Assembly: GCF_964194155.1 (NCBI RefSeq)
Contig: NC_135880.1
Span: forward strand, 177,506,001 to 177,570,000
Origin: Cetorhinus maximus
Taxonomy: Eukaryota
DNA length: 64,000 nt
Reading direction: 5' to 3'
Made by a program: the position numbers and the translations under genes. Below, one piece after another: positions 2,723-28,499 of this stretch (position 1 is the stretch's first letter; every line of letters starts with the position of its first letter). The notes under the pieces are model-generated. The model was not told where the DNA came from. It was given only the letters and a program-made list of their open reading frames with translations, and made no database searches.

Positions 2723-2770
2723 CCTGGATATTGCTGATTCTTATCAATTGAGATACGAGGAGGCACAGAA

Positions 2771-3088
2771 TCCTTCTCCCGGCCGGCAGGGGGTGCTCTG
2801 GAATATCCTCCTCCCGGCCGGCAGGGGGTGCTTTGGAGTATCTTCCTCCAGGCCGGCAGGGGGCGCTCTGGAGTATCCTCCTCCCGGCCGGCAGGGGGTG
2901 CTCTGGAGTATCCTCCTCCCGGCCGGCACGGGGTGCTCTGCAGTATCCTCCTCCCGGCCGGCACGGGGTGCTCTGCAGTATCCTCCTCCCGGCCGGCAGG
3001 GGGTGCTCTGCAGTATCCTCCTTCCGGCCGGCAGAGGGTGCTCTGCAGTATCCTCCTCCCGGGCGGAAGGGGGTGCTCTGCAGTATCC
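2771..3088. repeat. GC-rich 35-bp minisatellite, about 9 copies, upstream of NDUFB6
   Basis: Unit GGGGGTGCTCTGSAGTATCCTCCTCCCGGCCGGCA recurs at 2786, 2821, 2856, 2891, 2926, 2961, 2996, 3031. Confidence 0.92.
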
Positions 3089-3204
3089 CCGGTGTGACGC
3101 AATCAGCGTGCGCCGAACTGTAACCCGGGCAGTTGTTGTCGCTCTGATGCCGATGTCCGAGTGACCGGGGCCTAGTTATTGCTCCGCTCCGCCAGTTTGC
3201 AGCG

Positions 3205-3387
3205 ATGCCTCTGGGTTACACGCCAGAGGAGAAGGCCCGGTTCCAGCAGCTGGTGAACCTGCGCCGCCGGTGGCTGAAGGACCAGGAGCTGAGCCCGCGC
3301 GAACCCGTCCTTCCGGCCGATAGCAAAGGGGCCGTAAGCCGGTTCTGGGAGGGATTCCTACAGCCGCGGAGCCTCTGGAGAATTTAT
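3205..3387 (+). CDS. NDUFB6: NADH dehydrogenase 1 beta subcomplex subunit 6, exon 1
   Basis: [37 protein letters not shown]...FWEGFL carries the NDUFB6 signature; phase-0 donor TAT|GTGAGT. Confidence 0.95.
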
Positions 3388-6680: not shown

Positions 6681-6773
6681 ACCTATAAGACATGCAACGC
6701 AGGCTGGTGGACTTTGACTCGGTTGCTGATTCCTGCCTGGGTTGTCCATTACTACGTGAAGTACCATGTTGAA
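6681..6773 (+). CDS. NDUFB6: NDUFB6 exon 2
   Basis: TTTCAG acceptor; TYKTCNAGWWTLTRLLIPAWVVHYYVKYHVE (transmembrane helix); GTGAGT donor; 93 nt, phase 0/0. Confidence 0.93.
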
Positions 6774-7134
6774 GTGAGTACTGGCAGTTGTTGGCAATCT
6801 AGATGAAGAGCTAAAGAAAGAAACTGCATTGTCTATAGTGTCTTTCAGATTGTCCCAAAGCGCTCTACAGCTAATGAAGTACCTTTGAAGCATAGTCCCT
6901 GGTGTAATGTAGGAAACACGGCAGCTTATTTCCACAGGTGTGATAGTAACTCTGTTTTAAGCGTTGGTTGAGGGGTAAATATTGGCCAGCACACTGGGGA
7001 AAACTCCCCTCTTTGTCGTCCAAATTGTGCCAGAGATCTTTTATTTACACCCGGGAGGGCACACGAGGCTTCGGTTTAACGTCTGATTCAAAGGCAGCAC
7101 CTCCCAACAGTATAGGATTCCTTCAATACTGGTC

Positions 7135-7520
7135 AGGGAGAGATGTGGTAATGCCTTAGTGATAATGTTACCGGACTAGTAACCCAGACGTAATGCTCTT
7201 GGGACACAGGTTCAAATCCCACCATGACAACTGTGGAATTTAAACAATTAATATAAAGCCAGTCCCTGTAATGGTAACCATGATAACTATCAATTGTTGT
7301 AAAAACCCATCTGGTTCACAAATGCCCTTTTAGGGAAGGAAATCTGCCATCCTTACCTGGTCTGGCCTACATGTGACTCTAGACTCACAGCAACATGGTT
7401 GACTTTTAACTCCCCTCTGAAATGGCCTAGCAAATCACTCAGTTTCATGGGAAATTAGGGATATGCAGCAAATGCTGGCCTTGCCAGTGATGCCCACATC
7501 CTGTGAATGAGTAAAGAAAA
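7135..7520 (+). mobile_element. tRNA-derived SINE with LINE-like 3' tail
   Basis: A/B-box head (GGTTCAAATCCC), conserved body AAAACCCATCTGGTTCAC...GGAAATCTGCCATCCTTACCTGG, tail TGCTGGCCTTGCCAGTGATGCCCACATCC. Confidence 0.8.
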
Positions 7521-7961
7521 ATGTTTCTCAACAAAAATGTTCTCAAATCCCTCCATAGTCTCCATTCTCTCTATCACTGTTAACTTCTCCAGCCCTTCTG
7601 GCCTATTGAGTGTCCATGATTTTCATTGCTCTACCATTGGTGGCTTTGCCTTCAGCTGTCTAAGCCCTAAGCTCTGGAATTCCCCCCCTAAACCTGTGCC
7701 TCCATCACTCTCTCCTCTTTTAAGGCTCTCCTTAAAACCCACGTCTTGGATCAAGCTTTAGGCTCCTTGTCCTAAAATCTTATGTATCTCATTGTCAAGT
7801 TTTGTATGATAATCACTCCTGTTAAGCACCTTGGGATGGTTTACTATGTCAAAGGAGCCAAATAATTGCAAGTTTTTTGCTGTTACTTGTATTCAGTATT
7901 TGCATCTAGTAAATTTCAGTCGAGCTCTTCAGTCCTTAAATTTGTGGCTTTTGTTCCACAG

Positions 7962-8006
7962 GCTAAACCATATGGCGTTGTGTGTGTGAAACCAAAAATT
8001 TTCCCG
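7962..8006 (+). CDS. NDUFB6: NDUFB6 exon 3
   Basis: CCACAG acceptor; AKPYGVVCVKPKIFP; GTAAGT donor; 45 nt. Confidence 0.92.
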
Positions 8007-8476
8007 GTAAGTTACATGGCAGGATCTGCACCGTATGCATTAGTGTAAAATTGATTAGTGTATCTTCAATGTGCTGAGATGACGAGGAGAGATTTATAAA
8101 ACAAAGAAAAACTGAGAATGATGGAAATCTGAAACGAAACCAGGAAATTCTGGCGTTTGTTGCATCAAATCTTGGCACAGCCCATATTGAGTATTTATTC
8201 ATCAAACAGAAACCCAAGTGTGTAACCTCCCTCCAACCTGCAGTCATGTAATCTCCTGGGAGAGACCAAAAAATAAACAGAGCTAATAAGGGAAAAGTGC
8301 TCTTGAAAATTCCTCTCCAGTCAAGGTTTACCCACAGCACCTATGGGTGGCATTTTGAGAAAAAGCATGCAGCACCTGAACAGTCCCGCTTGCAGTAGTG
8401 CACATGCTGTACCTTGTTGTCACGTCTTCAACAATCTGTACAGGTCAAAACAAACACAAAGGAAAGATAATGGAAC

Positions 8477-9347
8477 TGTCAGGAGGATATAATAATGTTA
8501 TTGGAATTTATTGTAAGATTGTGGTATGTGTGTCTATATGTGTGTGTGTGTGAGAGAGAGAGACTTAATTGGATTAAAGGCAGCTGGCCTGAAGGTTTTG
8601 ATGTAGAAGATAGCTAGGTTTGAAATGTTAAGTAGATAAACATGGGAGAAGTTTAGAATGTAAGGTATAAAAGGACATTTGCATTTTTAAATAAACTAGA
8701 CTAGCTTGAATTAAAAAGAGGGAGTGAAATATTACACCAAACCAGCAGAAGTTAAGAAACAGTGTTTATTTTTCCCAAAGATTACTGGTAAAATTGGTAC
8801 TATGATAATTTTTTTATGATCAGGGAGGTAAAGCCCAAAGACATAGTGAAACAATGGGAATTTGCATTCAAAGGGGAAAATATGTATAAAAGAGAGAAGG
8901 CTCTGTGTAAAGGTAGGCATTTTAAGATCTAACAGGTGTGAAAAGCCTTCAGCATCTACACCTCAAGCTGCTGTCTACAACGAACTGAAATTAAGGAAAC
9001 TCACTTTGAATTGGATTGTTCAGGTATCATGTTTCTTTGCCCGGGTCTTTTAAAATCTGTGTTACTGTTGCCTTAACAGAGATATAACTGGAGTCAGATT
9101 AATTAGGGGCTTTAGAAGTTATTATAGTAGTAATTTATAGACATATATATGTGCTTTAAAAATCATTTTTATTTTTAATAGATGTTTAATCTAGTTTTGT
9201 CAAAATCTGTAAGGCTTGGTGGTCTTATTACTACTGAATTCAAAGCCCGCATCTCAAAACATACAGATTGCAAAAATAGTTGTGGCAGTTGTCTCAAGTT
9301 TCCCTCTGGGATTTGAACAGCTCAGCATTTTTGGCTGTGCCATAACA
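8477..9347 (+). mobile_element. Probable solo LTR (Gypsy-like) in NDUFB6 intron 3
   Basis: TGTCAG...CATAACA ends, near-identical flanks GGAAC/GGGAC, internal TATAAAA, no ORF. Confidence 0.55.
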
Positions 9348-10186
9348 GGGACGTCCCAAGAAGTGGCTAGGGAAATCCTGACTGGTGGTACTGGCTTTTG
9401 TGTATGAAGAAAGAATCCTGGTTCACCGCAGATGCGTTGGGAATCCCCTTACTGCTCGTTAGGCCCCAGGAACTGTCTCATTGAGGGGTTGTGTGTGTGT
9501 GTTTATGTACTGGCATGAGCCAGGGAGCTCTCAAACATAGGGACTCCGTGGATAAGCAGGAATCATGAGGTACTTGGGGGATGGGTTGTTTCCAAGCCCC
9601 GAAGATTCAGTGCGGTGAAAGTAAGGGTAAGTACATGCGGTTAGAATTTCCTCAGGAAATATCCCAACCCCCTGTCATTGCTGTATTGGAAAATTGATGA
9701 TAACACTGAAAAAAAGCTTTTTACGCTGCTACTCCAGAATCTAAACCAAAGTAATGGCAGGAAATTGCGAAAATCCCCCTGAAAAGATACTAGCTGTGAT
9801 CTCTGTACATTTTTTCTGTTTTTTTAAATCCAGTAACCTAAATTTTAGAGGTGCATATAACAATGTGAATATGGAACTGTTAAAGTAACTGTGTTTGAGG
9901 ATTTTTTTTGCTGGAATGTTACCTGTGTAGACTTTGTGTGATGAAATGAGATCAAGAGACGAGGGAAACTAGGGAGAAGGATTTTTGTGTGATACGGTAA
10001 CTGAGAATTGTAAATAGAAAATAACCAATTGTCACAAAAACTCAAGGCTCGAAACATTTAATTAATGGGGAAACCGGCTGAAAAAGACAGAAACAAGGGA
10101 TTTTATCATAAAGAATAACATGCTTGAGTGAAAATCTGTTGAGCTAATCACACGTCTGACTTCTATCTTATGGTTCGTTCCTTCAG

Positions 10187-10258
10187 GGTGACACAATATT
10201 GGAGACGGGAGAAGCTATTCCACCAATGCCGGAGGATGAGCAGAATGGGCACCACTAA
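10187..10258 (+). CDS. NDUFB6: NDUFB6 exon 4 (last coding exon)
   Basis: CTTCAG acceptor; GDTILETGEAIPPMPEDEQNGHH-TAA; GDTILETGE is the conserved C-terminal motif; spliced CDS is 130 aa. Confidence 0.94.
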   Translation, partial: GDTILETGEAIPPMPEDEQNGHH

Positions 10259-11650: not shown

Positions 11651-12560
11651 TACTGTTGGTCCAGTACAGCTCCAGGTAAAATTTGGAGGGCTACCTGCAA
11701 GCTGAACCCCAACTGCAGCAGATGATAGACATGCCATACAATCCCCCCCAACCAATTGTTTAAGTCAATGTTCTGTCGACCTCTTTGCATCCAGTCAAGA
11801 GTGGTGATGAATACCAAAAGAACCACCAGGTGGCCAACCCACATCCTAAACCATTCTGGAGCCCAGGACAAGAGTGGAGAAAACAACACCCTAAAGTGTT
11901 TCCAAGTGTCTTCAGAGATTCTGAAAACACAGGATCAGGATTTAGGGACAGAATTTTGAAGAGTTTACACCTCCAATGAAACCGCCAGTCAAATTTCATT
12001 TTAACCTCTGGCACCAGGAGAGTAATAAATGAAGGAATGCCACACGGAAAGGGACTGCAAGGAAATGTCAGGGTAGCAGGTAACTTACCACAACGGCTTT
12101 AACGTAATTATACTTCCTGAACTGCAGATTCCTTGCACTTTTGCACAGAGTCTTCAGCACAAACAGGATATTCAGCGTAGTGGGTTATGCTGGTATTTAT
12201 GATCCACACGAGCCTCCTCCTACCCGTCTTCATCAAACACTATTTCCTTCTCCCTCGTGTTTATCCAGCCTCCCCTTTAAATGTATGCTACTCACCTCAA
12301 CCAGTCCCTATGGTAGCGAGTTTCGCATTCTCACCGCTCTTTGGGTAAAGAAGTTTCTCCTGAATTCCCAATTGGATTTACTAGTGATTCTTTTATATTT
12401 ATAGACCGCAGGTTTGGTCTCCCCAACAAGGGAAATTACCTCAGTCCGAGTACCATTCAGATGACAGACATGGAATTGTAAACTTGATGAACATTGAAAA
12501 GTCTACTCCAGATTTTCAAAATATAGCTAATCTACCTAAGAAGTCTATATGGGTAACTGA

Positions 12561-13116
12561 GGGGAGAATTTTCTCCCCGTCGGGCTAGCCAATTAAGGCC
12601 TGCCCAGCGTGACGTGCGCCCGGTAGCGGTGAGCGCTCCCTGTGCGGGCAGCGGGAGGAGGGAGAGTCGCTGCCTGCGCTCTTTCGTGCATGCATGCGAA
12701 CGAGCACAGAAACCTCAGGGAGATGACTTTAATTATGAAGAATTGAAAAAAAATTATTCAGACATGTCCCCTCATGTGACAGTGTCACATGAGCTGGGAC
12801 ATGTCAATGAATTTTAATAAAAATTTTTATTTAACTTATAAACACTTCATGAAACCTCATCCCGCCCGTGGATGAGGTTTCATGATAAATGCGAAGGCCG
12901 CCTGGGCTCTTCGCCTGCCTAACAACCTTAAGGTTGGACGGGCAGCCCTGTTAATTGTTTCAACTGGTTGTTAAATGGGCTTAATAGGCCTTTGACAGTT
13001 TAGCGGGCGCACAGCCGACTCCGGTGCACGCCCGCCGAACTGAATATCAGTTTTACGTCACTTTACGCATCGGTGAGCAGGACCCACCCCCGCACGCCGA
13101 CCAGAAGATTCAGGCC
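12561..13116. mobile_element. Non-autonomous Harbinger-type MITE
   Basis: Ends GGGGAGAATTTT...AAGATTCAGGCC, 3-bp TSD TGA on both sides; subterminal motifs (GCCAATTAA...CCCAG-GTGA; ATCCC-CCCGTGGATGA) shared with the element at 41772-45909. Confidence 0.75.
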
Positions 13117-13723
13117 TGACTGTTGCTCTTCCTAATTCTTTGTGCAAAATATTTTACAGAATATACAACACAGAAACAGGCCATTCAAGCCAACTAGCCA
13201 ATGTCTGCTTATGGTCGCTCGAGCCTTTTTTCCACCCTTCACCCTCTGTCAGCATAATCCTCTATTCCTTTTTCCCTCGTGCTTATCTAGCTTTCCCTCA
13301 AATGCACCTGGGCTATTCACTTCAAATGATCCCTCTGTTGGTGAGCTCCACATTCTCACCACTGTTTTACATTAATTGTTTTACACAAATCCATGCAACA
13401 ACAAAGATATTCTAATCTTCAATGCTGTTTACAAATGGAAAAAATCAAAACATAAAAGGCGACAATTCTTTGCTGATAAAGCTTGATTATTAAAATGTGA
13501 ACATCAGAATTTTTAAGTGAAATTTTACAGTTTGAAGTAATTAAAAACATTCATTTGCAATCCAGTCATTCTTTACACATCAATTTAGTTATGTTTGCAG
13601 TGCTCACTGTGCAGCATTGAAAGCTGCAAGCTCACACATTGCACAAGGTTGGTGCCAAGACCTTTCTCCTCATCTGTGTCCTGCTTCGTCTAGTGATACA
13701 GGTGCCCTTACATCAGCAGAATC

Positions 13724-13843
13724 TTAATAAAGGTCTAACTCTGGAAATAATTTTGGAAATCTCTTCTTCAGCTGCTGGATACCTGTAATCCTGGCTGCAT
13801 AAATAACAAATCCCCAAGAGAGCAAGACGATGATCAGGAGTAT
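13724..13843 (-). CDS. SMIM27: Small integral membrane protein 27, exon 2
   Basis: Acceptor TCTTGTACAG; ILLIIVLLSWGFVIYAARITGIQQLKKRFPKLFPELDLY-stop aligns with recalled human LLLAIVLISWGCIIYAS...RQLRKKYP; syntenic position. Confidence 0.88.
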   Translation of the reverse strand: MLLIIVLLSWGFVIYAARITGIQQLKKRFPKLFPELDLY

Positions 13844-13879
13844 CTGTACAAGATGAGACAGACATCGCGTTAAATCAAA

Positions 13880-14095
13880 AAGAAAAGTACTATGGATGCT
13901 GGAATCGAAGTAAAAACAACAGAAAATGCTGGAAAACATTCAGCAAGTCAGGCAACACCTATGGTGAGGGAATAAATTAACATTTCAGGTTGCTGCAGTT
14001 CTGATAAAGGGTCATCAACCTGAAACGTTAACTCTTTCTCTCTTCATAGATGCCTGACGTGCTGAGCATTTCCAGCATTTTCTGTTTTCATTGCA
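13880..14095. mobile_element. Inverted pair of Penelope-derived terminal-repeat fragments with a degenerate hammerhead
   Basis: ACAGAAAATGCTGGAAA...TTAACATTTCAGGTTG followed by CAGTT-CTGATAA-AGGGTCATCAACCT-GAAACGTT-AACT...TTTCCAGCATTTTCTGT. Confidence 0.7.
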
Positions 14096-14852
14096 TTAAA
14101 TGAATTCTGGTAGATGATGCTAAGAGATCACAAGTAATTTTTTTTGGCATTTGTCCCTAGTACAGTCCCATAGATTTTAATAGAACTTGACTGCATTTTG
14201 TTTTTATCTGTATAAGCTTTGATTATTCTTCGCCCAACTTGACAACGTTCCTCCCAAAAGGCTGTTCATTAATTTCATTACTGTGGCTGCAGGGTATATG
14301 ATTAAGAAATTGGTGGAAGAATAGAAAATGGTCAAGGTTTCAACTGCAAGATATGTTTTGCACCATATAGTACTTAGCCCTGCTAGAACCGACAGAATAA
14401 ATTTTACTAATTAAAAGGAAATAAGTTTGCACCTTGTCTTAGCGACATGTTGTTATGGCAGTTTTCACAATTTGGTTTTAACATGCTGCAATATATATGT
14501 TAAAAAAAAAAGAAATATTTCGACGAGCACTTGAAACACCAAAGCATACAGGGCAATGGGCCAAGTGCTGGAAAATGGGATTTGAATAGATTGGTGCTTG
14601 ATGGCTGGCATGGACACGATGGGCCAAAGGGCCTGACTCTAAATAAGGGGTAATTAGTTAAGAGGAGTCAGATTTTGGTAAGAGCCCTATTAATTGGTAC
14701 TGTGTTCAGCTGAGCGAGACAGTGAGCTCGACAGAGGGCAAAACAGTGCCAAAGTGAAATTTAATACAGATTGTGCAGAGTAAGGCACGCAAGAAGTGCA
14801 AAAGGCACAACATTTTTCAGCCATCGTTGCTGCTAACCTAACATCCCAAATG

Positions 14853-14942
14853 TAAAGTTGCCAACTCTCCAGGATTGCCCTGGAGTCTCCAGAAGTCAAA
14901 GGGAATCTCCAGGACTATGCCCAACCAGAGTTGGCAACACTG
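14853..14942. mobile_element. Short hAT-like MITE
   Basis: Inverted ends GTTGCCAAC / GTTGGCAAC; body CTCCAGGATTG-CCTGGAGTCTCCAG shared with 59024-59395. Confidence 0.6.
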
Positions 14943-14973
14943 CTCCCCCCTGCTGTTCATACTCGATACTCAC

Positions 14974-15018
14974 AATGGAATAAATCCAGTCCAGCGCTCG
15001 CTTACTCACACGGATCAT
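14974..15018 (-). CDS. SMIM27: SMIM27 exon 1
   Basis: Kozak GCCGCCATG; MIRVSKRALDWIYSI (recalled human MKPVSRRTLDWIYSV); GTGAGT donor; phase-0 join gives 54 aa. Confidence 0.9.
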
Positions 15019-15560
15019 GGCGGCCCCGGGCTCCCTTCACTATGGCAACCGGTCACTATTGGGAAGCTGCACTTGCGAATAAAAAGAACGAGGAATTCTA
15101 AAATGTCCCCTCTAACCCCAACGGTTGGTGCTCTGCATCTCAAGTGGCGCAAAATCGCGACCCCATCTCGCTGTTTGGATCCCCCAGCGCTGAGAGAGTT
15201 AGCCCTCCAACAGTTGGTCCTCCGATTGGTGGGTCCTCCAATATCCCGGCAGGTAGCGCGCGGTGAGTTGTCGGACCTCCGCCATCCAGGGCAGTGGGGT
15301 GCACTGGTCCTCCAGCGTCCCGGCGGCCAGTGGGGCGCACTGGTCCTCCGGCGTCCCGGCGGCCGGTGGGGCGCACTGGTCCTCCGGCGTCCCGGCGGCC
15401 AGCGCGACGCCGTCACTCATCGCGCTTGTGTGATGGTGTCACCCCCTCACAGGCAGCGGCTTGTCCCGGACTGAGGCGGGGGGCAGGACCCTGAGTGGGA
15501 ATAACGGGAGCAAATGTTCGCGGCCAGATCAGGGAGGAGGGGGGACGGGATGCTATAGCA
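15019..15560. promoter_or_regulatory. CpG-rich bidirectional promoter region of SMIM27/TOPORS
   Basis: CpG-dense island starting at the SMIM27 ATG; CCAAT/ATTGG boxes at 15058, 15225 and 15238; GC boxes near 15475 and 15677; head-to-head arrangement as in human. Confidence 0.7.
15292..15399. repeat. 36-bp GC-rich tandem repeat, 3 copies
   Basis: CRGTGGGGYGCACTGGTCCTCCRGCGTCCCGGCGGC at 15292, 15328 and 15364. Confidence 0.9.
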
Positions 15561-15655
15561 TTTTTATTTTTTAAAAAAAAGAAAGAAACGCAGTTAAAAT
15601 AATTTATAATTCGAGTGAAGTGTGAGGAAGATCGGGGAGTGAGTGGCTGCTGCAG
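15400..15655 (+). other. TOPORS: Candidate non-coding first exon of TOPORS (start not defined)
   Basis: Strong donor CAG|GTAAGA at 15655/15656; alternative donors CG|GTGAGT (15262) and weak ATG|GTGTCA (15435). Confidence 0.4.
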
Positions 15656-18600
15656 GTAAGAGACCCAGGGGAATGGGGGCGGGGAGGGGGTTTGATTGGA
15701 GACTGAGGCCAACAACAGACCAGCCTGTCAGTGAGAATATCCACCGCCTGCAACCACTTGTGGAGCTGGGAGGTGACAAGGCAACAAAAAAAATACAAAG
15801 GCCAGATTTTTAAATCGAAACCCGAGCCACTGAACACAAGAATTGGGTTAATTAATTAAAATAATAACTGGGGTAATTCGATAAGATCATGACTGGTCTT
15901 ATTGTGGCCTCAGCTCCACTTTCCTGCCTTCCGAAGAAGGGTCATATTGGACTCCAGACATGCTGAATTTTTCCAACACATTCTGTTTCAGATGTCCAGC
16001 ATCCGCAGTATTTTGCTTCCCATTTCCTACTTTACACCCCCCATAAACCTTGATTCCTTGTCGATGAAAAATCCATCTATCTCAGCCTTGGATATATTCA
16101 GTGACCCAGCCTCCACTGCTCACTGTGGAAGAGAATTCCACAGCCCTCCGAGAGAAGTAATTTCTCCTAATCTCTGTCTTAAATGGGGGACCTCTAATTT
16201 TAAACTGTGTCCCCTAATTCCACAAGGGCAGACATCCTCTCAGCATCCACCCTGTCAAGTCCTGTCAGGACCTTATATATTTCAATAAGATCACCTCATT
16301 CTTCTAAACGCCAGTGGGTACAGGCCTATCTTTTCCTCATAAGATAACCCTACATCCCAGGTATCAATCTTATGGCATTCGATGTTGGTTTAGTTTTGAT
16401 TCCTACTTTGCTGGCTGTGGGAAAGTCCAGCTTAACTTTAAAATCAGGACCATTCAGGAGAACAGTTAGGAAACAATTCTTCACATAAAAGGTGGCAGAA
16501 GTGTGGAACACTCTCCCACAAACAGCAGTAGATGCTAGTTCAATTCATTTATTTTAAATCTGGGAAAATGATGGGTTTTTTTTGCTGGAGAAGACAAGGG
16601 TATAAAAAATATGGAGCTAAGGCAGCTGGATGGAGTTAAGTCAGCCATGATCTGATTGAGTGGCAGAACAGGCTCAGAGGTCTGAATGACCACCTCCTGC
16701 TCCTGGAGTCTGAATACAATGATTATTGCACAAGTAAACAAGTTGATTTATCTGTGTACATTTGAAGGTGTCAGGACTTCTTAAAAAAATGCATACAAGA
16801 CCCTGGACTTTATAATAGGCATGGAATACAAAAGCAAAAGAGTTATGTTAAACTTCTAATGCTGGTTAGTCACTTGGAGTATCATGTTCAAGTCTGAATA
16901 CCAAACTTTAGAAAAGGTGTCAAAGACCTTGGAGAGAGTGCAGAGGAGATTTAGCAGAATGACACCAGGGCTAGAATCTTACAGCACAGAAGGAGACCAT
17001 TTGGCCCTTGTGCTTGTGCCATTTCTTTGAAAAAGCTATCCAATTTATTCTACTACAGTTTACTTCTACACCACCCCCACAACCCTGCAAATTAGTCCTC
17101 AAATACATGTTCAATTGCCTTTGGAAAAGTTCCTGAATCTAATTCCACCCTTTCAGGTAATACATTCCAGACCTCAACAACTTTCTGAAGAAATTTCTCA
17201 TCTCCGACCCCGCCCTCGCCATTGCCCTCACCCCCGTCCTTGCCCTTGTCTTTTTTACTAATTATTTTAATTTCATGAATACTTTCAATCTCTGAATACT
17301 GATCAGTATGCCAGATGAAAAAGTTTCTTTCCCACTTGTTCAGTCAAAACCCCTTAATTTTGAATGCCTCTGTCCAGTCTCCCCTCAACCTTTTGCATTA
17401 TGATTTGAAATGCCAAGTTGACAAATTTACCAGTTGAATCTATTACTGCTTTGGAACTTGGCATCACTGCTTAGTTTGTTTGTCTAGTATTAAAAACAAA
17501 AGCTGCAGGTAACAACTTGGTAGACAATGAGGGGCTCCAATTACATGACGAGATTAGAGATGCAGGCATTGTTCTCCTTAGAGCAGAAATGGTTGTGGAA
17601 AGATTTAATAGAGGCTTTTCAAATATTATGGGTTTACTATGAGTAAATAGGGATAATGGCAGGGTTGGCAACCAGAGGACAGAGATTTAAGGTACAGAGC
17701 AAGAGAACCCAGTGTGAGATGAGAAGTTTTTAAGCAGCAGTTTGTTGTGTTCTGGAACGCGCTGTCTGAAAGGGCAGTGGAAGCAGATTCAATAATAACT
17801 TTCAAGAGGGAATGAAAGGAGAAAATTTTAGGACTTTAGAAGCACAACTATCTGGATAGTTCTTTTTTTAAAAAACCGGCACAGGCACAATGGGACAATT
17901 AGCTTTCTGTGCTCTGATTCTATGATTCAATGCAAGTATACCACAATATACATGCATTTATTGCATAAGAGGAGATGTGGATGCATGGATAAAAAGCTGG
18001 CTGGTAGGCAGCAAATAAATGGTTAGGCTGATGTGAATCACTGGGATGAGAAAAGCAATGGGAGGAGGATTGGACCCATATGTCAGTACTTTATCCAATT
18101 TTGTTCTCTATTATTTGAACACAACATAATAATAATATAATAATTTGCTAATGACACAGATATAGGGTGCGATAAACGAGATACAGGGCTTCAGATGTGC
18201 AATTTCCTGGAAAGCTCCAGTGCAGGTAGATAGAACCATGAAAAGAGTTAAAGACCTTTATAAATAGAGCCATTGATTACAATACTGATAAATTTGTATA
18301 TGGCAGTGGTTAGATCTTCCCCCTTACAGACTGGTCATCAAAACTATCAAGAATGCACAGTAAAAATTTGCTATGGTCATGTTGTCCATCAGAAATTACT
18401 TACTAGATATGGCTGCCATGAAACCATTTTAGTCACATACCAGTTTTATTAGAAAACTTCTTGCGCACACTCAGAAAATACAGGTAAATGCACTTCAGGG
18501 TTGTGTTTACTTAATATGGATCTACCAACATTGAGTAACCAAGAGAGTAGAGCATTCTCGACCAAAATACCCCTACGCTCTCCATGTATTAGCATTTTAC

Positions 18601-19281
18601 CAACAAGCACTCAAAAAGGGTAAAATACGCAGCATGTGTTATGTGAACTTAAGTATTGAGACCACTTTCCCAACAGTGATGTTGATTATTCATTTTTTAT
18701 ATACCAAACAGAATGCAATCTGGGCTCCCAATTTTCCACACCTGGCTAGTGGCTACTTTTCAATTCTATCCCTCTAGAAATAAACTCATGTGCTTGGTTT
18801 GATTTTTTAATGGACTTGCTAACCTGTAGCACAACTTTTTGGTGTATTTGTTCTTGAGATCCTTTGTCTCAACCCCACCTATACACACACCTTCGAAGAG
18901 AAGTGTTGCTAACTTACTTTTTAAACAATATATAAAGTGATTTTAGTATGTATGTTTGTATATATGTTCAATAATGTGGGATCAGACAGTGTGATTTACT
19001 TCAAGGTTGTGCGCTCATACTGAATAGTGGCTTGGGATCTCTCACAGCGATCCTCCACTAATATCTTTCGATTCCCTCAGAATACGTGTATTTTACATCT
19101 ATTCTGTAGATTTTTCATCATCTCTGCTCCAACAGAAATTTCAATTTCTCTTTTGAATTAATCCAAGTCTTGTTTATGATTAGTGCAAATTAGACTTGGT
19201 AATGAAGTCACCTGGGGCTGTCATTTTGTTTAGATAAATGGGCCATATCAATTTTGTACTCGAATGTAAAGTTCTCATCTT

Positions 19282-20120
19282 TGTGTTAACAAGAATTAAA
19301 GAAAACTTCACAGAAGATTACAGTTGCGCAGTTAAAAAAATAGTCTTACAACACATTCCCCAAAAAGACTCCCTACTTGGTCAGACCCACAAGTAAACAC
19401 CTTCCAGGCAACATTCCCATATAGATATTTAACTTAAAAATCCAGTAATATTACCCAAGGCTGTAGCTTTAATAACGGCATACCACACGACCCCCTTAAA
19501 CTCTTTTCTACTCTGCTGTGGAAATCCAAAACTTTAGAACAGACTGCTTGTTGCAGCCCAAGACTTCTCTGGCTTGACTGGATGGCTGATTCAAACTGCA
19601 TCTGCTCCCAGCTCAGAGCTCCAGCTAACAGCTACATCTCACAGCTCCAGCTAACAGCTACGTCTCACAGCTCCAGCTTAATGGCTATCATAAGCTCTCC
19701 ACGGTAACTCTAAAATACCTTTTTTTCCCCTTTCATCTCAGGTTCCATTGTACTCACATCTCTTTGAAACTCAGATCCTTTCAAACATAAAATCTTTAAT
19801 TCTTTATTTTGTCTTTGCTTTCGGGTCAATAAAATATATCACCTCTTCTGTTTACCTGTGGAATTCCTGCAAGATGCAAACATGTGTCTTTTCACCTCTG
19901 ACTTCCCTTTGATATTCAGACAAATTCTCAGCTTATCTAAAAATGCAAATGTTAGATCTAACCTATTCACTTGTACCTCAAACCTAACACATTTATCGTT
20001 TTCATGTTTTAAACTGCCCAGAAAACCTGTCTCCTATTAATCTCTGCCCAGCCAAAGTAAATCTCTCACACACAATCTTTTCCACAGAATAACACAAAAT
20101 AACCTTCATATCTCACACAA
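19282..20120 (-). mobile_element. Possible solo LTR with internal 26-bp tandem duplication
   Basis: TGTG...CACA ends, composition like the reverse of 8477-9347; CTCCAGCTAACAGCTACRTCTCACAG repeated at about 19618-19675. Confidence 0.4.
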
Positions 20121-21224
20121 TTCTGACCTCTTGTGGAGGCCAGGTCATTGAGTGTATTTAAGACCGAGATAGATAGGTTCTTGATTGGTAAGGGGATCAA
20201 AGGTTACGGGGAGAAGGCGGGAGAATGGGGTTGAGAAACTTATCAGCCATGATTGAATGGTGGAGCAGACTCGATGGGCTAAATGGCCTAATTTCTGCTC
20301 CTATGTCTTATGGTCTCTTGCACACATCCCTGACTTTGATCAGCCCCCCCATTTGCAGCCCTGTCTTCAGCTGCATCTATCCAATTACAAAATTTCTAGT
20401 TTGAGAAATTCCTGCCTAAGACTGTTTCAGTAGCTCAGTTATCAGTTTATTTTATTTTTTTAAAGTGCATCTAGCTCTGATCTTTTCACCATACAGCAAT
20501 CACCAATGATAGACATATGTAATATTGGAAGAGGAAGAAGCCATTCAGTCCCTTGAGCTCATTCCACCATTCAACTTGATCATGGTTGATCTGTATCTTG
20601 CCTTGGTTCCGTAACCCTTAATATCCTTGCCTAACAAAAATCTATCAATCAATCTCCTCAGTTTTAAATTGGCTCCCAGCCTCAACGACTTTTTGAAGGA
20701 GAATGTGTTCCAGATTTCCACTACTCTTTGTGTGAAGGTGCAATTCCTGTCATCACACGAGTTCTAATTTTACCCTTTTTGAGGGCATTTGAAAGAAGAT
20801 CTGATTTAGGCTGCTGTTTAAGTGTTCAGCATGCTTGTGCAATAAAATACAAAGCATCTGATGAATCAATAACCTGTGCATGCACTAATAAAAGTTTTTT
20901 TTAACCAAGGCAAAGTTGTATTCCTTCTTAATTTTCCAATTCAAAACAATAAATTAAAGCTTTTTAAAATATATGTTCAGGGGATGTGGGTGTCGCTGGC
21001 CAGGCCAGCATTTTCTGCCCATCCCGAGTCTATGACTCTTTAGCCCATGACCAAATGATCACTGGCTAATCTTATAAGATTCTTTTACACTTCAAACTCT
21101 TGTTGGGCTGCTCACTGGAGAATGTTACTGAATTCAAAACTTCTTTCAAACAAACTTGGTGCTTGTTATAATCTCAAAATCACCAGAGACAAGAAAACAA
21201 AGGAAAACTCATGACACTTACATG

Positions 21225-22145
21225 TGATGGCACAAAGATAGGTAGCAAAGTAAGTTGTGAGGAGGACATAAGGAGGCTAAAAAAAGATAGGTTAAGTGAG
21301 TGGGCAAAGATCTGGCAAATGGAGTATAATGTGGGAAAATGTGAAATTGTCCATTTTGGCAGGAAGAATGAAAGAGAAGCATATTATCTAAATGTTGAGA
21401 GATTGCAGAGCTCTGAAATGCAGAGGCATCTGGGTGTCCTAGTGCATGAATCACAAAAAGCTAATATGCAAGTACAGCAAGTAATTAGGAAATCTAATAG
21501 AATGCTATCATTTATTGTGAGGGGAATTGAATACAAAAGTAGGGAGGTTATGCTTCAGTTGTACAGGGCACTAGTGAGACTACACCTGGAGCACTGTGTA
21601 CAGTATTGGTCACCTTATTTAAGGAAGGATATAAATGCGTTGGAAGCAGTTCAGAGGAGGTTTACCAGACTAATACCTGGAATGGATGGGTTGTCTTATG
21701 AGGAAAGGTTGGACAGGCTAGACTTGTATCCACTGGAGTTTAGAAAAGTAAGAAGTGACTTGATTGAAACCTTTAAGACCTTGAGGGGTCTTGACAAGGT
21801 GGATGTGAAGAGGATGTTTCCTCTTGAGGGAGAATCTAGATCTAGGGGTCACTGTTTAAAAATAAAGGGTCGCCCATTTAAAACAGAGATAAGGGAAAAA
21901 AATTTCACTCGGAGGGTCGTGAGTCTTTGGAACTTTCTTCCTGAAAAGGTGGTGGAAGCAGAATCTTTGAATATTTTTTAAGGCAGAGATGGATAGATTC
22001 TTGGTAAGCAAGGGAGTGATAGGTTATCAGCGATAGGTGGGATGCAGATTCCAGGTTACTATCAAATCAGCAATGATCTTATTAAATGGCGGAGCAGGCT
22101 CAAGGGGCTGAATGGCCTCATCCTGCTCCTTGTTTGTATATTCAT
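21225..22145 (+). mobile_element. CR1 LINE, 5'-truncated (RT C-terminus and 3' UTR)
   Basis: ORF 21211-21981: DRLSEWAKIWQMEYNVGKC...LYRALVRLHLEHCVQYWSPYLRKDI..LEAVQRRFTRLIPG; CR1 tail. Confidence 0.9.
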
Positions 22146-25100
22146 ATGTTCATGGGTCTCATTTACTAAAATACACATGAACATTGAGAATTTAAATTAA
22201 GTCTTATTGTTTTGTGAAAATGCCATTAAGCAGATTTTTAAAAATTAAATAACATTTCTTCTGTTTGATGGAGATATGTCCTACCTTTTACATGTGCACA
22301 GCAGCAAATCTTACAAATCTGCTTCTGAAGAGCCAAAAAGAAAACTAGACACTATAATCTCAGTTGAGTGATGCACAAGCATCATTTTGGTGCCATGCTG
22401 TTCCTGATCTTCTTTCTAATGGAAATGCAAGTTTCGTCAACCCCATAAATTTGAGTTTTATATCCATGAATAAAGATGGTTGGGTAACTTGCATTTGGCC
22501 AGAATTCTGTGTTTAGGGTGGCAACCTTGTACAAAAGAAAGATTGAATTTTGGTGCTGTATTCTACATAATGTTTTTGAAGGGAAGGCAAGATTTTATTG
22601 TTTTCAATAAACCTCAGTAAATCATAATGACAGAATTGCAGCGACATGAAAAATATTCCCATTGGCAAGTCTGTGCAAGTGTTAAAATATACTGCACCAG
22701 CTCTTCTCTCTGTTTCAGCAGGATAACCACTTTTAGCAATATGTGAAGGTAATGGACTCTGATGTCACAATAAAGTTTTAGAAATGTTCTCATGCAGCGA
22801 GCAAATAAACAGTCCTTTTGGTTCTGATATCTGGTTTTGACTGCAGTCCAGACTAGGGTGATGAAATTATCCTCTCTGCTACCTAGCAAAATTTTGCATG
22901 AAATGTGTTTGGGCAAATCTCGATCTAAATGTCTAGTGAACCCTCATCCGCCAAATTGGCAACCTCGCTGAGAGAAAATACACTCAGTTTATTAGTCAAC
23001 AGCTGGGGTGAAGCCTTAGGTCGAAATTAATCTCTGATCATAAGGTCTAGGGTTCAAAGGTTTAATCTGTCACAGTAAAATATTTCTGTAGTTGAGTTCT
23101 TACACAGGCAGTGGCTATATTGCTTTGCTGTACATTACCAGTTCAAAACCTCCATACAAACCCATAGTGTAGCATGTCTGTATTCCAGATGAGTCTGTAA
23201 AGTCAACGGTTGTACTATAGGAAAGATCCACCATGGTAACAACACATTGAACACTGGATGCATAACTGGGTGCTTTGTAACAACAACTTGCATATATACA
23301 GCATTTATAACGTAGGAAAACATCTCAAGGTGCTTTCCTTCCTAAGGTTTGCTTTAGCAAAGGCACAGGAAGAGAGAAGGTGGGAAACTCGATCACATTC
23401 TTTATAATAAAAGCAAAATACTGCGGATGTCTGAAGTAAAACCAGTAAATGCTGCAAAAACTCAGCAGGTCTAGCAGGTCAGCAGATCTCTGTAGAGAGA
23501 GAAAAAGATAACAATTTGAGTCCTTATGACTCTTTAGATCACATTCTTTATCTTGCTTCTTGGCAAGACTAAAGTACAGTGGTTGTGTGTGCAGCTTGGT
23601 GGTCTTTGTTTTTATTTAAAAAAGAGCAGATTTAGAATGTTTTCCAATTTGTATGTTGTCCTCAGCATTAATATGTTCTGTGTAAATGTTTACATTGACG
23701 GTGTTGGTTGCATATTCCAAGTGGTCTGGAATGGATTGAAGATCACATTGTATTTTTATTTGCTGCATGCAATTGAAATCACCAGCATTTCAATCCCTAG
23801 TGGCAACTCCACTGTCTATACATCCCCCTATGCACTGCATTTTTGTACTCCTTTCTCAATGTGGGCATCACTGGCAAGACCAGCATTTATTGTCCATGAA
23901 GTTGTTGATTAGCCACCTTCTTGACCTCTGCAGTCCATGTGGTGCATGTGCTCCCATAATTGCAGTTAGGTAGGGACTTGCAGAATGTTGAACCAGCGAC
24001 ACTGTAGGAATAGCGACAGGATGGTGGGGGAGGGGGACTTGCAGGTGATGGTGTTCCCATGCACCTGCTGCCCTTAGAAGTTGCAGGTTTGGGAGGTGCT
24101 GTCAAGCAACAACCACAAAGCTGCAAATCCTGACCTCAGTCTCAGCTATAAGTCATGCAGTTGTTGGAAATTTGGGACTGTGGGATGGGGAGCCAGCCAG
24201 CAAAGCTGATCTGCCTGTGAAAATCTTTAGACTTGTCTGGGTAATTATTTAGTCTGGAGAGCTGCAGGGTGTACAGGTTACCTAGAATTATGCAGAATAT
24301 ACAACGGATACACAATGTAGAAAGATGGGCAATTAAGTAATAGTAAACTTTTTTTTAAATGCTGATCTTTTTTCATTTCTAAAGATCTTGTTTTTGCATC
24401 AAACTTTCTAATCCTAGATTATTGCAACTCTCGTAACATGCAGAGAATTCCATACAGCAGAGCAACAAGCGTAACCATGTTATGCTGCCTCTTTCCACCT
24501 TTATCTCGCCCCCATCAGCATCTCCTTCCAATTCGTTCTCCCTCGTGTTTATCTGTCTTTCCCTTAAATGTGTCTTTGTGAGACGCCTCAACCACTCCCA
24601 GTGTCAAGTTTCACATTGTCACCACCCTGTGGCTAAAGAAGTTTCTCCTGAATTCCCTATTAATCAATAATAAATCTATTTTACATTGAAACTCTCCCAC
24701 TGGTGGAAACATCTCTAATTTCCCACATCAGAGAAAACAGCACCAGCCTGTTCAATCTTTCCTGATGTGTATAACTTCTCAGTTCTGGAATCATCCTTGT
24801 AAATCTTATTTGCACCTTCCCCAGTGCCATGGATATATTCCTTAACCATCCTACGCCACAGATAGTGTTGTCATAAATGGTACATTTGAGAAATGCAACC
24901 TGACAAAGTGTTATAGGTGGTGCTATGAAATTGCTTTATAAAGACAAGGCACAGTACATCAGCAAGTTACCTCCTATAAAGTACAGCAACATGTTGTACC
25001 CAGATCTTGTTCTATTATTACATTTTAAAAATGAGGAGGCCCAAACTGGTTGTGCTTGGGTGCGCACTGTAGTTCCTTTAAAAAAAAACTAACCTGGTTT

Positions 25101-25364
25101 GTCACAACTGTACATTGGGATCAGATATTCACAGTGGGAGGGTAAACTGGAAAACACTTCACACTAGGCCCCTCTCAACAGCACTCCTGGCTGTATACAG
25201 AGTGGCAGAGGCCTGGGACCTGACGTCCAGCATGCCTGTACAGTTACAATACATGGCTAACTCTACTGGATTTTACAGGGAAAAATGACACCTTTTCTTG
25301 GCCTTTTGTTTCTGTATGGGTTCAGAAGTACTTCATTGGGGTCTTTACTTTTGGTTTTCAGATT

Positions 25365-28300
25365 ATGGCGTCTGCTACAGAGGATTTGAATGCGGAGAAC
25401 CAGTTTTCACCAGAGCCTGAAACCAGTAAGATTCCACATGGAGTTCGGGCTGATGCATCACCGGATGCAAAATGCCCCATCTGCCTAGACAGATTTGACA
25501 ACATGTCTTACATTGATCGCTGTTTTCATAAATTCTGCTTTCGCTGCATTCAGGAATGGTCTCGAAACAAAGCTGAATGCCCCTTGTGCAAACAGCCATT
25601 TAACTCCATATTCCACAGTGTGCGGACCGAAAACGATTTTCAGGAGTATGTACTGAAGGCGACAGAGAACGGCTCGTTTGCCAGTCCAGGTGGGCAGAGG
25701 TTTAGGTACCGAACAACACTGACCCGGGAACGTCGCACGACCCATCAGCGTCGGAGGTCCCCAGTTCTTCCCGTAATACCCGACAACGGAGTGGTATTCG
25801 AAGGACTTGGGCGCCAGCCCCGGGTGCATCAGGGACACAACTTGCGTCGGATGATGTTACGACTGGGCGCCCGGAGGAGAGCACAGTCCGAGGGCAGAAC
25901 CATGCGCCAGGTCCAAGAACAAGAAATGATCAACTTTAGACGGGAATTGTACCGGTCGGGCTTGCGTGTCAGGAACGTCCAGGATGGGGGTCGGAGTCGA
26001 GACATTTCCGCCGAATTCTTCCGCCGCAACGCAGCCTGTCTTCACCGACTAATGCCATGGTTGAAAAGGGAACTCTGCGTCTTGTTTGGCTCCCACGGCT
26101 CTGTTGTCAACATTGTGCAACATATAATCATGTCAAACATCGTTCGATACAACATGGAAGACGGGGCCTTTCAGGAAGAACTCAGGCCCTTTTTACTCAG
26201 CCGCACAGACCATTTCTTGCACGAGTTTATAAGCTTTGCGCGGGCACCATTCAACATGGAATCATATGACCAGCGGGCCAACTATGACTGTCCAGCTCCA
26301 TCCTACGAGGAAGAAAGTGACTCAGATTTATCTGTAATCACAATTTCGCCTGACACCGCTAACGTTCAGGAAGAAGATAGACCCACTCCCAATCCTTCAG
26401 AATTAGGTCTTGGCCTAAGTCAGGCAACATGGGACGATGAAACTCCTGGCCCTTCTTACTCAGTGGCAGAGACCATGGAGTCGGTTAACTCCTCACCTGG
26501 TGAAACCTCTGCTGTTTCTGAGGAGATGCCACCACAAGCTGGATCCTCTTTACTTACGGTGTCAATAAAATCCGATCCAAGCACAAAGGAAGAGGGCTCA
26601 GCCCGTTCAGCCGATGACTGCTTAATAGTTGGTTATGTGAAGCCTTTAGCTGAAAGGACTCCTGAACTTATTGAACTGAGCTCAGACTCTGAAGTTTCCG
26701 TACAGGCCACCAGCACCGAGGTTGTCAAACAGCCGATGCATTTACGATTCCACAGCACCAGCAGTTTGTCCTCGTCAACTAGATCATCATCAGCTAGATC
26801 GTCTGTGTCCAGGGAGCGATTGAAAAGAAAGAAATTGAAACAGAAAAAGAGTAACAAATCAAAAAGAGATAAGCACCGCAGTCATAAGAAGAGTTCCCAT
26901 TCTGGGGGCAATGCGTCACGTTCAAGCAGACGGAGGGAGAGGATGTCAAGCAGAGTTCGAGGCAGTTCGAAGGATCGATCAAGAATCCGACCACATAGTA
27001 GAGACAAGCATGAGTTTAGGAGGACTGAGCGATCAAGCACCAGGGACAGAACCATGGTGGCTTACTCTTACAGCAGAGGTGAACATCAAGCTAAAGACCG
27101 GAGCAGGAGAGCCGGCCGAGACAGATCTTCTTCAAGAGAGAGGGCCAGATCAGGCAGCAGAGAAACCCATGCTCGTCAAACCCGAGACAGGAGGCGATCA
27201 AGGAACCGAGAGCGAGTGCCATTCACCAGAAGTCGGACAAGGTCACAGAACAGTGACAGTGCCGTTTACAGGCATAGAGCTAGGTCACGTTCTTGGAGCA
27301 GAGGCTATGCCGCTCTTGGAGACAGGAGGAGGTCCAGAAGTCGAGAGAGGGCGTACAGCTACATGAGAGAATACCAGGAAAGAAACAGGGGGTTCTTATA
27401 TCAGTGGGAAAGATATAGCTACCACAGTAGAATGAACGATGGCCGTGATTCCGCGCCTCGAACCAGAGCTCACCACAGGAGAGGGTCACCGTGTTCAGAT
27501 TATAGAATTCGATCTAGTTCTGAAAGCACAAGCTTCAGAAGCCCAAGTAGCCATAGGGATGATGTCTATTACCAATACAGAAGTTATCGATCAAGAAGCC
27601 CATCCAGTACCAGATCTAGAACTACTTCTGGTAGAACTGATAAAATGAGACAAGAGAAACCTGGGGGCAAACGTAAATATAAAACTCATTATTTGGAAAG
27701 TTCCTCCAGCAAAAGTGCAAGTTTGCAGCTTTCTAATTTATCATCAGAAATTCACGTGTTGCCCAGACAGGAGGGTAGTTCTCCTGGCCCTCTTTCACAG
27801 TGTAGCAGTAACTCGAAAAGCGGCTCCGTGTTACTTGAGAGTATGCTAGGCAGCGAGCCAAAGTGGAAAAAGCACAATGAGAAGACAAGAAGTGCAAGTG
27901 TGGAAATCGTGTACGAGGGAAGGGTAACAGAGGCAAGTCAGCGCCATAAAAGAAAAAAGAAACACAAAAAGAAACAAAAAAGGGGAAAGAGCAATGAATG
28001 GGCTGACAGTGAATGTCATTCACCCCTTGTGATAACCATTGAGAGTGATAGTGATGTAATTGTTACAAGTATGGAAGATGGCAACAGCACTGTAGGCACA
28101 ACCACTAACCTTCTTAACGAAAACAATTTTGAACTTGTCGAGAAGTGTGTTCTTGAGACTGTGGAATCTCAGGATCTTCCTGCTACAACACCGAATATTT
28201 TCTTAAGGCACACAAGCACAGAGTCCTTGGATGTTTGTGGACTGTCTGCAGATTCTGATCCTAGTCCTCCAAATTCAAATGAACAGACTCACCTTGACCA

Positions 28301-28499
28301 AGATGATGTCAGTCCGGTGACTGATACCGACTGTCACCAGAATTTCAAAGGGGAAGAGCAAGACCATGGACAGAACTGCTCTTCGCCAAAAAGGACTCTT
28401 TCTAAAAACTCTTCAGACAGGCCACCTTTGATACTGAAAATCCCAAAGAGGTTCATTAACGGAGCCAACTTATTTAGCCGTCCAACGGAAAATGCATGA
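25365..28499 (+). CDS. TOPORS: E3 ubiquitin/SUMO ligase TOPORS, 1044 aa in one exon (exon starts 25362)
   Basis: DASPDAKCPICLDRFDN...CFHKFCFRCIQEWSRNKAECPLC RING; NAACLHRLMPWLKREL; RS-rich region; SIM-like motifs (PELIELSSD, SVEIVYE, LVITIESDSD); EKPGGKRKYKT. Acceptor TTTCAG|ATTATG. Confidence 0.97.
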   Translation: MASATEDLNAENQFSPEPETSKIPHGVRADASPDAKCPICLDRFDNMSYIDRCFHKFCFRCIQEWSRNKAECPLCKQPFNSIFHSVRTENDFQEYVLKATENGSFASPGGQRFRYRTTLTRERRTTHQRRRSPVLPVIPDNGVVFEGLGRQPRVHQGHNLRRMMLRLGARRRAQSEGRTMRQVQEQEMINFRRELYRSGLRVRNVQDGGRSRDISAEFFRRNAACLHRLMPWLKRELCVLFGSHGSVVNIVQHIIMSNIVRYNMEDGAFQEELRPFLLSRTDHFLHEFISFARAPFNMESYDQRANYDCPAPSYEEESDSDLSVITISPDTANVQEEDRPTPNPSELGLGLSQATWDDETPGPSYSVAETMESVNSSPGETSAVSEEMPPQAGSSLLTVSIKSDPSTKEEGSARSADDCLIVGYVKPLAERTPELIELSSDSEVSVQATSTEVVKQPMHLRFHSTSSLSSSTRSSSARSSVSRERLKRKKLKQKKSNKSKRDKHRSHKKSSHSGGNASRSSRRRERMSSRVRGSSKDRSRIRPHSRDKHEFRRTERSSTRDRTMVAYSYSRGEHQAKDRSRRAGRDRSSSRERARSGSRETHARQTRDRRRSRNRERVPFTRSRTRSQNSDSAVYRHRARSRSWSRGYAALGDRRRSRSRERAYSYMREYQERNRGFLYQWERYSYHSRMNDGRDSAPRTRAHHRRGSPCSDYRIRSSSESTSFRSPSSHRDDVYYQYRSYRSRSPSSTRSRTTSGRTDKMRQEKPGGKRKYKTHYLESSSSKSASLQLSNLSSEIHVLPRQEGSSPGPLSQCSSNSKSGSVLLESMLGSEPKWKKHNEKTRSASVEIVYEGRVTEASQRHKRKKKHKKKQKRGKSNEWADSECHSPLVITIESDSDVIVTSMEDGNSTVGTTTNLLNENNFELVEKCVLETVESQDLPATTPNIFLRHTSTESLDVCGLSADSDPSPPNSNEQTHLDQDDVSPVTDTDCHQNFKGEEQDHGQNCSSPKRTLSKNSSDRPPLILKIPKRFINGANLFSRPTENA

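What the first reader, a model, noticed from the sequence alone, without database searches (positions are those of the whole stretch)
13724..15018. Hidden 54-aa microprotein gene SMIM27, antisense and head-to-head with TOPORS
Seen: a 45-nt exon with a strong Kozak context splices in phase 0 to a 120-nt exon, giving MIRVSKRALDWIYSIILLIIVLLSWGFVIYAARITGIQQLKKRFPKLFPELDLY (one transmembrane helix, basic tail). Known: human SMIM27 was formerly annotated as TOPORS antisense RNA and is poorly characterised. Retention of sequence, exon structure and position in a distant vertebrate argues for a real, ancient membrane microprotein that annotation could easily miss.
Basis: partly seen in the sequence, partly recalled or inferred. 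Interest (0 to 1): 0.7.

Follow-up and report, generated by a model that had tools for sequence, protein, structure and literature searches.

The report
Shark copy of cilium-gate microprotein SMIM27
This is a real, spliced two-exon gene for a 54-residue protein with one predicted membrane helix, the already-annotated shark copy of the vertebrate gene SMIM27, which likely works in the gate at the base of cilia rather than in mitochondria; it is an ordinary orthologue.

Summary
Two minus-strand exons (15018-14974, 13843-13724; GT-AG, phase 0) give a 54-aa ORF. An identical protein is already in RefSeq as 'SMIM27-like'. The exact junction is present in contigs of 6 of 7 RNA-like runs from related species. 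Orthologues run from sharks to mammals, and a sea-cucumber protein also fits the family. The gene lies tail-to-tail with NDUFB6 and head-to-head with TOPORS; no transcript overlap was seen, so 'divergent' fits better than 'antisense'. The mitochondrial guess is unsupported: a 2026 review lists SMIM27 as a ciliary transition-zone, MKS-complex microprotein needed for ciliogenesis (primary paper not held). Best reading: a small membrane subunit of the ciliary gate (about 0.8). The scan found this gene before on another cartilaginous-fish genome. Two leads remain: a pre-vertebrate origin, and SMIM27 as an unconsidered candidate in ciliopathy patients assigned to TOPORS. Verdict: already known; interest 0.15.

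The parts
14974..15018 (-). SMIM27 exon 1, coding part (codons 1-15)
   Evidence: donor GT directly after; junction in contigs
15019..15231 (-). SMIM27 5' leader (minimum extent), with two 8-codon upstream ORFs starting at 15166 and 15138
   Evidence: contig ends 15148-15231; uORFs
13844..14973 (-). 1130-nt GT-AG phase-0 intron
   Evidence: unspliced DNA-like contig
13724..13843 (-). SMIM27 exon 2, coding part (codons 16-54 and stop); holds most of the predicted membrane helix
12887..13723 (-). SMIM27 3' UTR (contigs end at 13511, 13469 or 12887; one runs past 13200)
   Evidence: nearest AATAAA at 12831
15001..16000 (.). CpG-rich kilobase (GC 0.55, CpG obs/exp 0.74) holding both first exons; likely bidirectional promoter
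   Evidence: promoter role inferred
15292..15402 (.). 36-bp tandem repeat, 3.1 copies, between the two first exons
15416..15655 (+). TOPORS non-coding exon 1 (minimum extent), donor GT at 15656
   Evidence: start of 4.4-kb contigs; no in-frame ATG; joint to 25362 inferred, not displayed
25365..28499 (+). TOPORS coding sequence, 1044 aa, RING from residue 37
   Evidence: 53% identical over 118 aa to a gecko Topors-like model
6681..10258 (+). NDUFB6, last three coding exons (6681-6773, 7962-8006, 10187-10258), tail-to-tail with SMIM27
   Evidence: Pfam NDUF_B6 in 2 of 3 pieces, one over the cut-off; GT-AG joints

Best explanation
This is the single-copy, spliced shark orthologue of SMIM27, whose 54-residue product is predicted to be one membrane-spanning helix that likely serves as a small structural subunit of the MKS complex in the ciliary transition zone. 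Shown here: gene anatomy, splicing in relatives, orthology, synteny. Taken from a review table: transition-zone location, MKS-complex binding and need for ciliogenesis. Inferred: the conserved C-terminal half of the helix (V21-A31, with invariant W25, V28, Y30, A31) packs among the membrane helices of MKS subunits such as TMEM231 or TMEM17/216 and helps the gate assemble or stay stable; the gene is co-transcribed with TOPORS from a shared CpG-island promoter.
For: Identical RefSeq protein named SMIM27-like, 4 more shark models. 70 proteins at E<=0.01 of 1071 candidates, most named SMIM27, from amphibians, reptiles, teleosts and mammals; 58% identity over 45 aa to a lemur SMIM27. A profile of 43 non-shark vertebrate sequences scores the shark protein 84 bits; 0 of 200 segment-shuffles reach it. 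W25, V28, Y30, A31, L40 are invariant in 48 of 48 vertebrate sequences. 19 of 85 stored relatives lack the exon-1 part ahead of position 16, and an orangutan isoform has its insertion exactly after residue 15, pointing to the same intron. Junction in 6 of 7 RNA-like runs, 5 studies. One helix, residues 6-43, mean pLDDT 82.8; hydropathy peak 2.5. [quoted passage not shown] The genome holds TMEM231 and TMEM17/216-family genes. TOPORS is itself described at the basal body (PMC8361718).
Against: The function rests on one row of a review; the primary paper was not held, so I saw none of its data, and linking the row to that paper rests on the order of the reference list. No shark protein, localisation or binding data. 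No run of the window's own species showed the junction (X20 listed none). Conservation shows no one-sided helical face (p 0.39-0.44), so the packing model has no positive test. Topology is unresolved: the C-flank is more basic than the N-flank in 34 of 48 vertebrate sequences, but even in the 6 divergent ones. The shark tail differs from the tetrapod tail.
Confidence: 0.8

Rival explanations
1. A mitochondrial membrane microprotein, co-located with NDUFB6 because of shared function.
For: NDUFB6 is the neighbour; many single-helix microproteins are mitochondrial (review table).
Against: NDUFB6 is tail-to-tail, so it does not share the promoter; the same review places SMIM27 at the transition zone; no Pfam or PDB likeness to respiratory subunits.
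Confidence: 0.05
2. The locus acts mainly as a regulatory RNA (TOPORS-AS1) or as a by-product of the TOPORS promoter; the peptide is secondary.
For: [quoted passage not shown]
Against: ORF, start, length and helix residues are kept across sharks to mammals; PMC8021562 has 0 occurrences of 'peptide' or 'ORF' in its main text, so it did not address the peptide; no overlap with the TOPORS transcript seen in sharks.
Confidence: 0.05
3. The protein is an ER or secretory-pathway assembly factor that chaperones MKS membrane subunits, or has a broader membrane role, and is only secondarily at the cilium.
For: Conservation covers all faces of the C-terminal helix half, which fits burial in any bundle; human SMIM27 was a hit in two monocyte CRISPRi screens (PMC11145268), though knock-down of a neighbour is a caveat the authors raise for such loci.
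Against: The review gives a transition-zone location.
Confidence: 0.1

Closest known systems
SMIM27 (small integral membrane protein 27; human gene also annotated as TOPORS-AS1)
   Same: Homologous over the whole helix (58% over 45 aa to a lemur protein); two exons with the break after codon 15; beside TOPORS and NDUFB6 (human link); about the same length.
   Different: Shark-specific tail after residue 33; 54 versus 55 aa; no overlap with the TOPORS transcript seen in shark contigs (the human overlap is recalled, not tested).
RefSeq 'SMIM27-like' shark models (XP_078385408.1, XP_041042310.1, XP_067886729.1, XP_078071445.1, XP_067839666.1)
   Same: 100%, 94%, 80%, 80% and 73% identical.
   Different: None for the first.
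MKS module of the ciliary transition zone (TMEM231, TMEM17/216, TMEM107, tectonics, B9 proteins; full list recalled)
   Same: Reported binding partner of SMIM27; module gates entry and exit of membrane proteins (PMC9844136).
   Different: SMIM27 has no sequence match to any Pfam family of the module; binding not tested here.
Holothuria leucospilota hypothetical protein KAJ8040382.1
   Same: 38% identical over 52 columns, same start position and helix motif; 46 bits on the vertebrate profile, 0 of 200 shuffles reach it.
   Different: Not named SMIM27; shorter, different tail; synteny and intron not checked.

Membership tests
SMIM27 orthologues | Sequence homology to named SMIM27 proteins | tested here: met
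SMIM27 orthologues | Two coding exons, phase-0 intron after codon 15 | tested here: met
   direct in the window; indirect for other vertebrates from where their protein models break
SMIM27 orthologues | Position between TOPORS and NDUFB6 | tested here: met
   human link from papers
SMIM27 orthologues | Single copy (orthologue, not paralogue or retrocopy) | tested here: met
   2 of 3 matches are the two exons; the third (E 6.7) has no plausible ORF; intron present in DNA
SMIM27 orthologues | One hydrophobic membrane helix | tested here: met
   prediction only:
SMIM27 orthologues | Purifying selection at codon level (dN/dS) | not tested
   no orthologous coding DNA was held; protein-level conservation only
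SMIM27 orthologues | Translation (ribosome footprints or peptides) | not testable with these tools
   no such data source
Natural antisense transcript of TOPORS | Overlap of the two transcripts | tested here: inconclusive
   contigs end at or below 15231 (minus) and begin at or above 15416 (plus); contigs cannot fix starts
MKS-complex subunit | Localisation at the transition zone | not testable with these tools
   review table only
MKS-complex subunit | Physical binding to MKS proteins | not tested
   no whole partner protein was in hand for a complex prediction
MKS-complex subunit | Partner genes present in the same genome | tested here: met
   TMEM231 (5 exon matches) and TMEM17/216 family (5 matches); only 2 families were searched
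Mitochondrial inner-membrane microproteins | Homology to a respiratory-chain subunit or assembly factor | tested here: not met
   no Pfam family over cut-off, 0 PDB matches at E<=1

The most novel reading that the evidence does not exclude
SMIM27 is an ancient ciliary-gate subunit older than vertebrates (sea-cucumber homologue), has shared a promoter with TOPORS since the ancestor of jawed vertebrates, and is the true or contributing gene in the recessive oral-facial-digital/Joubert cases assigned to TOPORS p.Pro10Gln: those patients are homozygous over 6-17 Mb that include this locus, the report never mentions SMIM27, the phenotype is typical of transition-zone genes, and shark and gecko TOPORS models appear to lack the N-terminal segment that carries Pro10 (human numbering recalled). 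The pre-vertebrate part alone I put at about 0.85; the disease part is the unlikely one.
Probability: 0.1. Interest if true: 0.65.

Novelty: already known. Interest (0 to 1): 0.15.

Why it matters
As found, it matters little: the protein is already annotated and the family has a reported function. It adds modest support that SMIM27 is a conserved coding gene and not merely a lncRNA, which bears on how TOPORS-AS1 cancer studies are read. If the side leads hold, a 50-residue gate subunit would be traceable into invertebrates, and a human ciliopathy locus would need re-examination, because promoter-level or founder-haplotype effects at TOPORS could act through SMIM27.

Tried and rejected
Pfam: no family over cut-off for the protein or for 21 relatives. 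PDB: 0 matches. ESM Atlas: not answered for the shark protein; a lizard homologue gave no feature hit and only generic helix matches. Primary paper (PMC12662653) and Strong 2023 (PMC10449431) not held; 'TZMP1', an alias I recall for SMIM27, is in 0 papers of the library. No RNA holder on record was listed; X20, the run with the same species label as the DNA-like holders, listed no piece on the gene, which is no evidence either way. One-faced helical conservation: not significant. Positive-inside topology: unresolved. Metagenome scan: 2 loci of 39 pattern matches; L005 is a chance hit in a GC-rich bacterial-type contig with the match out of frame with the local gene and was dropped; L004 gave no neighbours or intron. 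P0020 is a repetitive 1018-aa false positive (no score). Nucleotide differences in relatives' contigs (one shown in the ORF, Y54H; 21 rows not shown) were too few for a selection test. No complex prediction was run. Sequence look-up in earlier findings returned nothing.

Full report
Observation. The 1130-nt intron has a GTGAGT donor and a pyrimidine-rich acceptor ending TACAG. The start context is GCCGCC-ATG-A, good upstream but without G at +4. The first kilobase above the ATG is the most CpG-rich of the window (GC 0.55, obs/exp 0.74).

Splicing. Of 20 runs listed I laid 8. In one search the joint 13843/14974 stands in one contig in each of 4 of 4 runs. In one search the piece table shows contigs bridging the same joint in X6 and X9; X20, a small run, lists no piece on the gene; X16 has a contig identical to the window that crosses the exon-2 boundary unspliced (13158-14042). 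So 6 of 7 RNA-like runs, from 5 studies and three organism codes, hold the joined form. Limits: these are relatives (a few differences per hundred bases), the RNA label is the tool's guess, and contigs show neither strand, level nor true ends. Exon 1 reaches at least 15148-15231 and the 3' UTR 13511-12887. The leader holds two 8-codon upstream ORFs.

Identity. The protein is 100% identical to RefSeq XP_078385408.1, 'small integral membrane protein 27-like' of Cetorhinus maximus, with four more shark models at 73-94%. A wider profile found 70 proteins among 1071 candidates, most named SMIM27, from amphibians, reptiles, teleosts and mammals. From the stored proteins I took 52 vertebrate entries, dropped 4 by length, and aligned 48: W25, V28, Y30, A31 and L40 are invariant, and L17, V21, L23, S24, G26, P45 are kept in 47. 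A profile of the 43 non-shark sequences scores the five shark proteins 80-88 bits, with 0 of 200 segment-shuffles reaching any of them. In 19 of 85 stored relatives the exon-1 part is missing ahead of position 16, and an orangutan isoform carries its insertion exactly after residue 15, which points to the same intron in other vertebrates (several of the 19 are primate isoforms of one event). The genome has one copy.

Neighbourhood. NDUFB6 ends at 10258 on the + strand (Pfam; GT-AG joints), tail-to-tail with SMIM27. TOPORS lies on the + strand: 4.4-kb contigs begin with 15416-15655, and the 1044-aa RING ORF starts at 25365. The joint 15655 to 25362 was not displayed; it is inferred from the donor and acceptor and from laid pieces starting 3 nt early on the shared CAG. 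About 185 nt, holding a 36-bp repeat in 3.1 copies, separate the outermost contig ends, so the pair is divergent and overlap was not seen. In human, one paper equates SMIM27 with TOPORS-AS1 (10.1101/2021.06.24.449728, passages) and another assigns the same chr9:32.56 Mb interval to SMIM27 and NDUFB6 (PMC11181590, passages).

Mechanism. The model is one helix, residues 6-43, mean pLDDT 82.8, pTM 0.48, with the hydrophobic peak at 14-32. No Pfam family or solved structure matches. A 2026 review (PMC13143143; I saw the table passage and reference list) lists SMIM27 as a 55-aa microprotein at the ciliary transition zone, partner MKS complex, function ciliogenesis; the matching reference appears to be Sun et al., Dev Cell 2025, which was not held, so neither its text nor its supplements were seen. 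The transition zone gates membrane proteins through MKS, NPHP and CEP290 modules (PMC9844136, passages). This genome encodes TMEM231 and TMEM17/216-family proteins. I therefore infer that the shark protein is a small membrane subunit that packs its conserved V21-A31 stretch among MKS transmembrane helices. Two tests of detail gave nothing: conservation has no helical periodicity (p 0.39-0.44), and flank charges do not settle topology. Confidence: orthology about 0.99, ciliary function in the shark about 0.8.

Rivals. The mitochondrial guess has only gene order for it. An RNA-level function has published support for human TOPORS-AS1 (PMC8021562, passages), but that text has no mention of a peptide or ORF, and the protein conservation argues for coding. 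An ER assembly-factor role remains open; SMIM27 was also a hit in two monocyte CRISPRi screens (PMC11145268, passages).

Depth of the family. The search of 1.84 billion representatives gave 24 hits at E<=0.001, one of them a false positive. The cluster of one weak hit (E 2.9e-4) contains a 50-aa hypothetical protein of the sea cucumber Holothuria leucospilota. It scores 46 bits on the vertebrate-only profile against a shuffle maximum of 8.7; five unnamed divergent proteins (P0021, P0023, P0025, P0027, P0086) score 27-44 bits and P0024 43 bits, each with 0 of 200 shuffles reaching it. This rests on one named invertebrate, with no synteny or intron check. I found no paper on it (searches 'SMIM27', 13 papers; old aliases; 'TZMP1'), but the unread primary paper may cover it.

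A clinical lead. Two unrelated patients with oral-facial-digital syndrome VI were homozygous for TOPORS p.Pro10Gln inside runs of homozygosity of 6 and 17 Mb on chromosome 9; the main text has 0 occurrences of SMIM27 and names several transition-zone genes as causes of the same overlap with Joubert syndrome (PMC8361718, passages). Shark TOPORS has its RING at residue 37 with no in-frame upstream ATG in exon 1, and a gecko model at residue 36; the human RING begins near residue 103 (recalled; one search did not confirm it), so the Pro10 segment may be absent in these species, though a further small exon in the 9.7-kb intron was not excluded. Against the lead: TOPORS is itself described at the basal body and its knock-down gives ciliopathy-like fish, exome sequencing would probably have shown a SMIM27 coding variant, and the 2023 follow-up could not be read. 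I give it 0.1.

Verdict. The scan reached the same conclusion before on another cartilaginous-fish genome (e1-9311471), seen after my reading was recorded; it is not independent support. Already known; interest 0.15.

Noticed in passing
window 15166 and 15138, minus strand: Two 8-codon upstream ORFs in the SMIM27 leader, both ending well before the main ATG; could tune translation. Conservation not checked.
   Followed up: partly
window 15292-15402: GC-rich 36-bp tandem repeat, 3.1 copies, 94% matches, between the divergent first exons.
   Followed up: no
window 15416-15655 and 25362-28499, plus strand: Shark TOPORS appears to have a non-coding first exon with three out-of-frame ATGs and one large coding exon, with the RING at residue 37.
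   Followed up: partly
P0017 and P0022 (Gekko japonicus XP_015265280.1, XP_015265279.1): Two gecko RefSeq models fuse NDUFB6 or TOPORS to SMIM27 exon 2, which needs the same strand, unlike the shark layout; rearrangement or assembly artefact.
   Followed up: no
P0035 (KAJ8040382.1); P0021, P0023, P0024, P0025, P0027, P0086: Divergent SMIM27-like proteins from a sea cucumber and from unnamed records suggest an origin before vertebrates.
   Followed up: partly
L004:125-247: Intron-free 40-codon SMIM27-like ORF followed by about 1.2 kb of AT-rich sequence, transcript-like; organism unknown.
   Followed up: partly
   Followed up: no
window 1335-2249, 21172-21981, 44764-45132, 47455-48018, 52679-55245: Open frames that look like broken retroelement and transposon pieces (LINE/Penelope-like reverse transcriptase or endonuclease, Harbinger-like transposase), judged by eye; no family scan run.
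   Followed up: no
window 2583-3215: GC-rich tandem minisatellite giving long repetitive open frames on both strands.
   Followed up: no
window 12540-13120: High-copy, CpG-rich interspersed element just beyond the SMIM27 3' UTR that contains the nearest AATAAA (12831); the longest transcript contig ends inside it.
   Followed up: no
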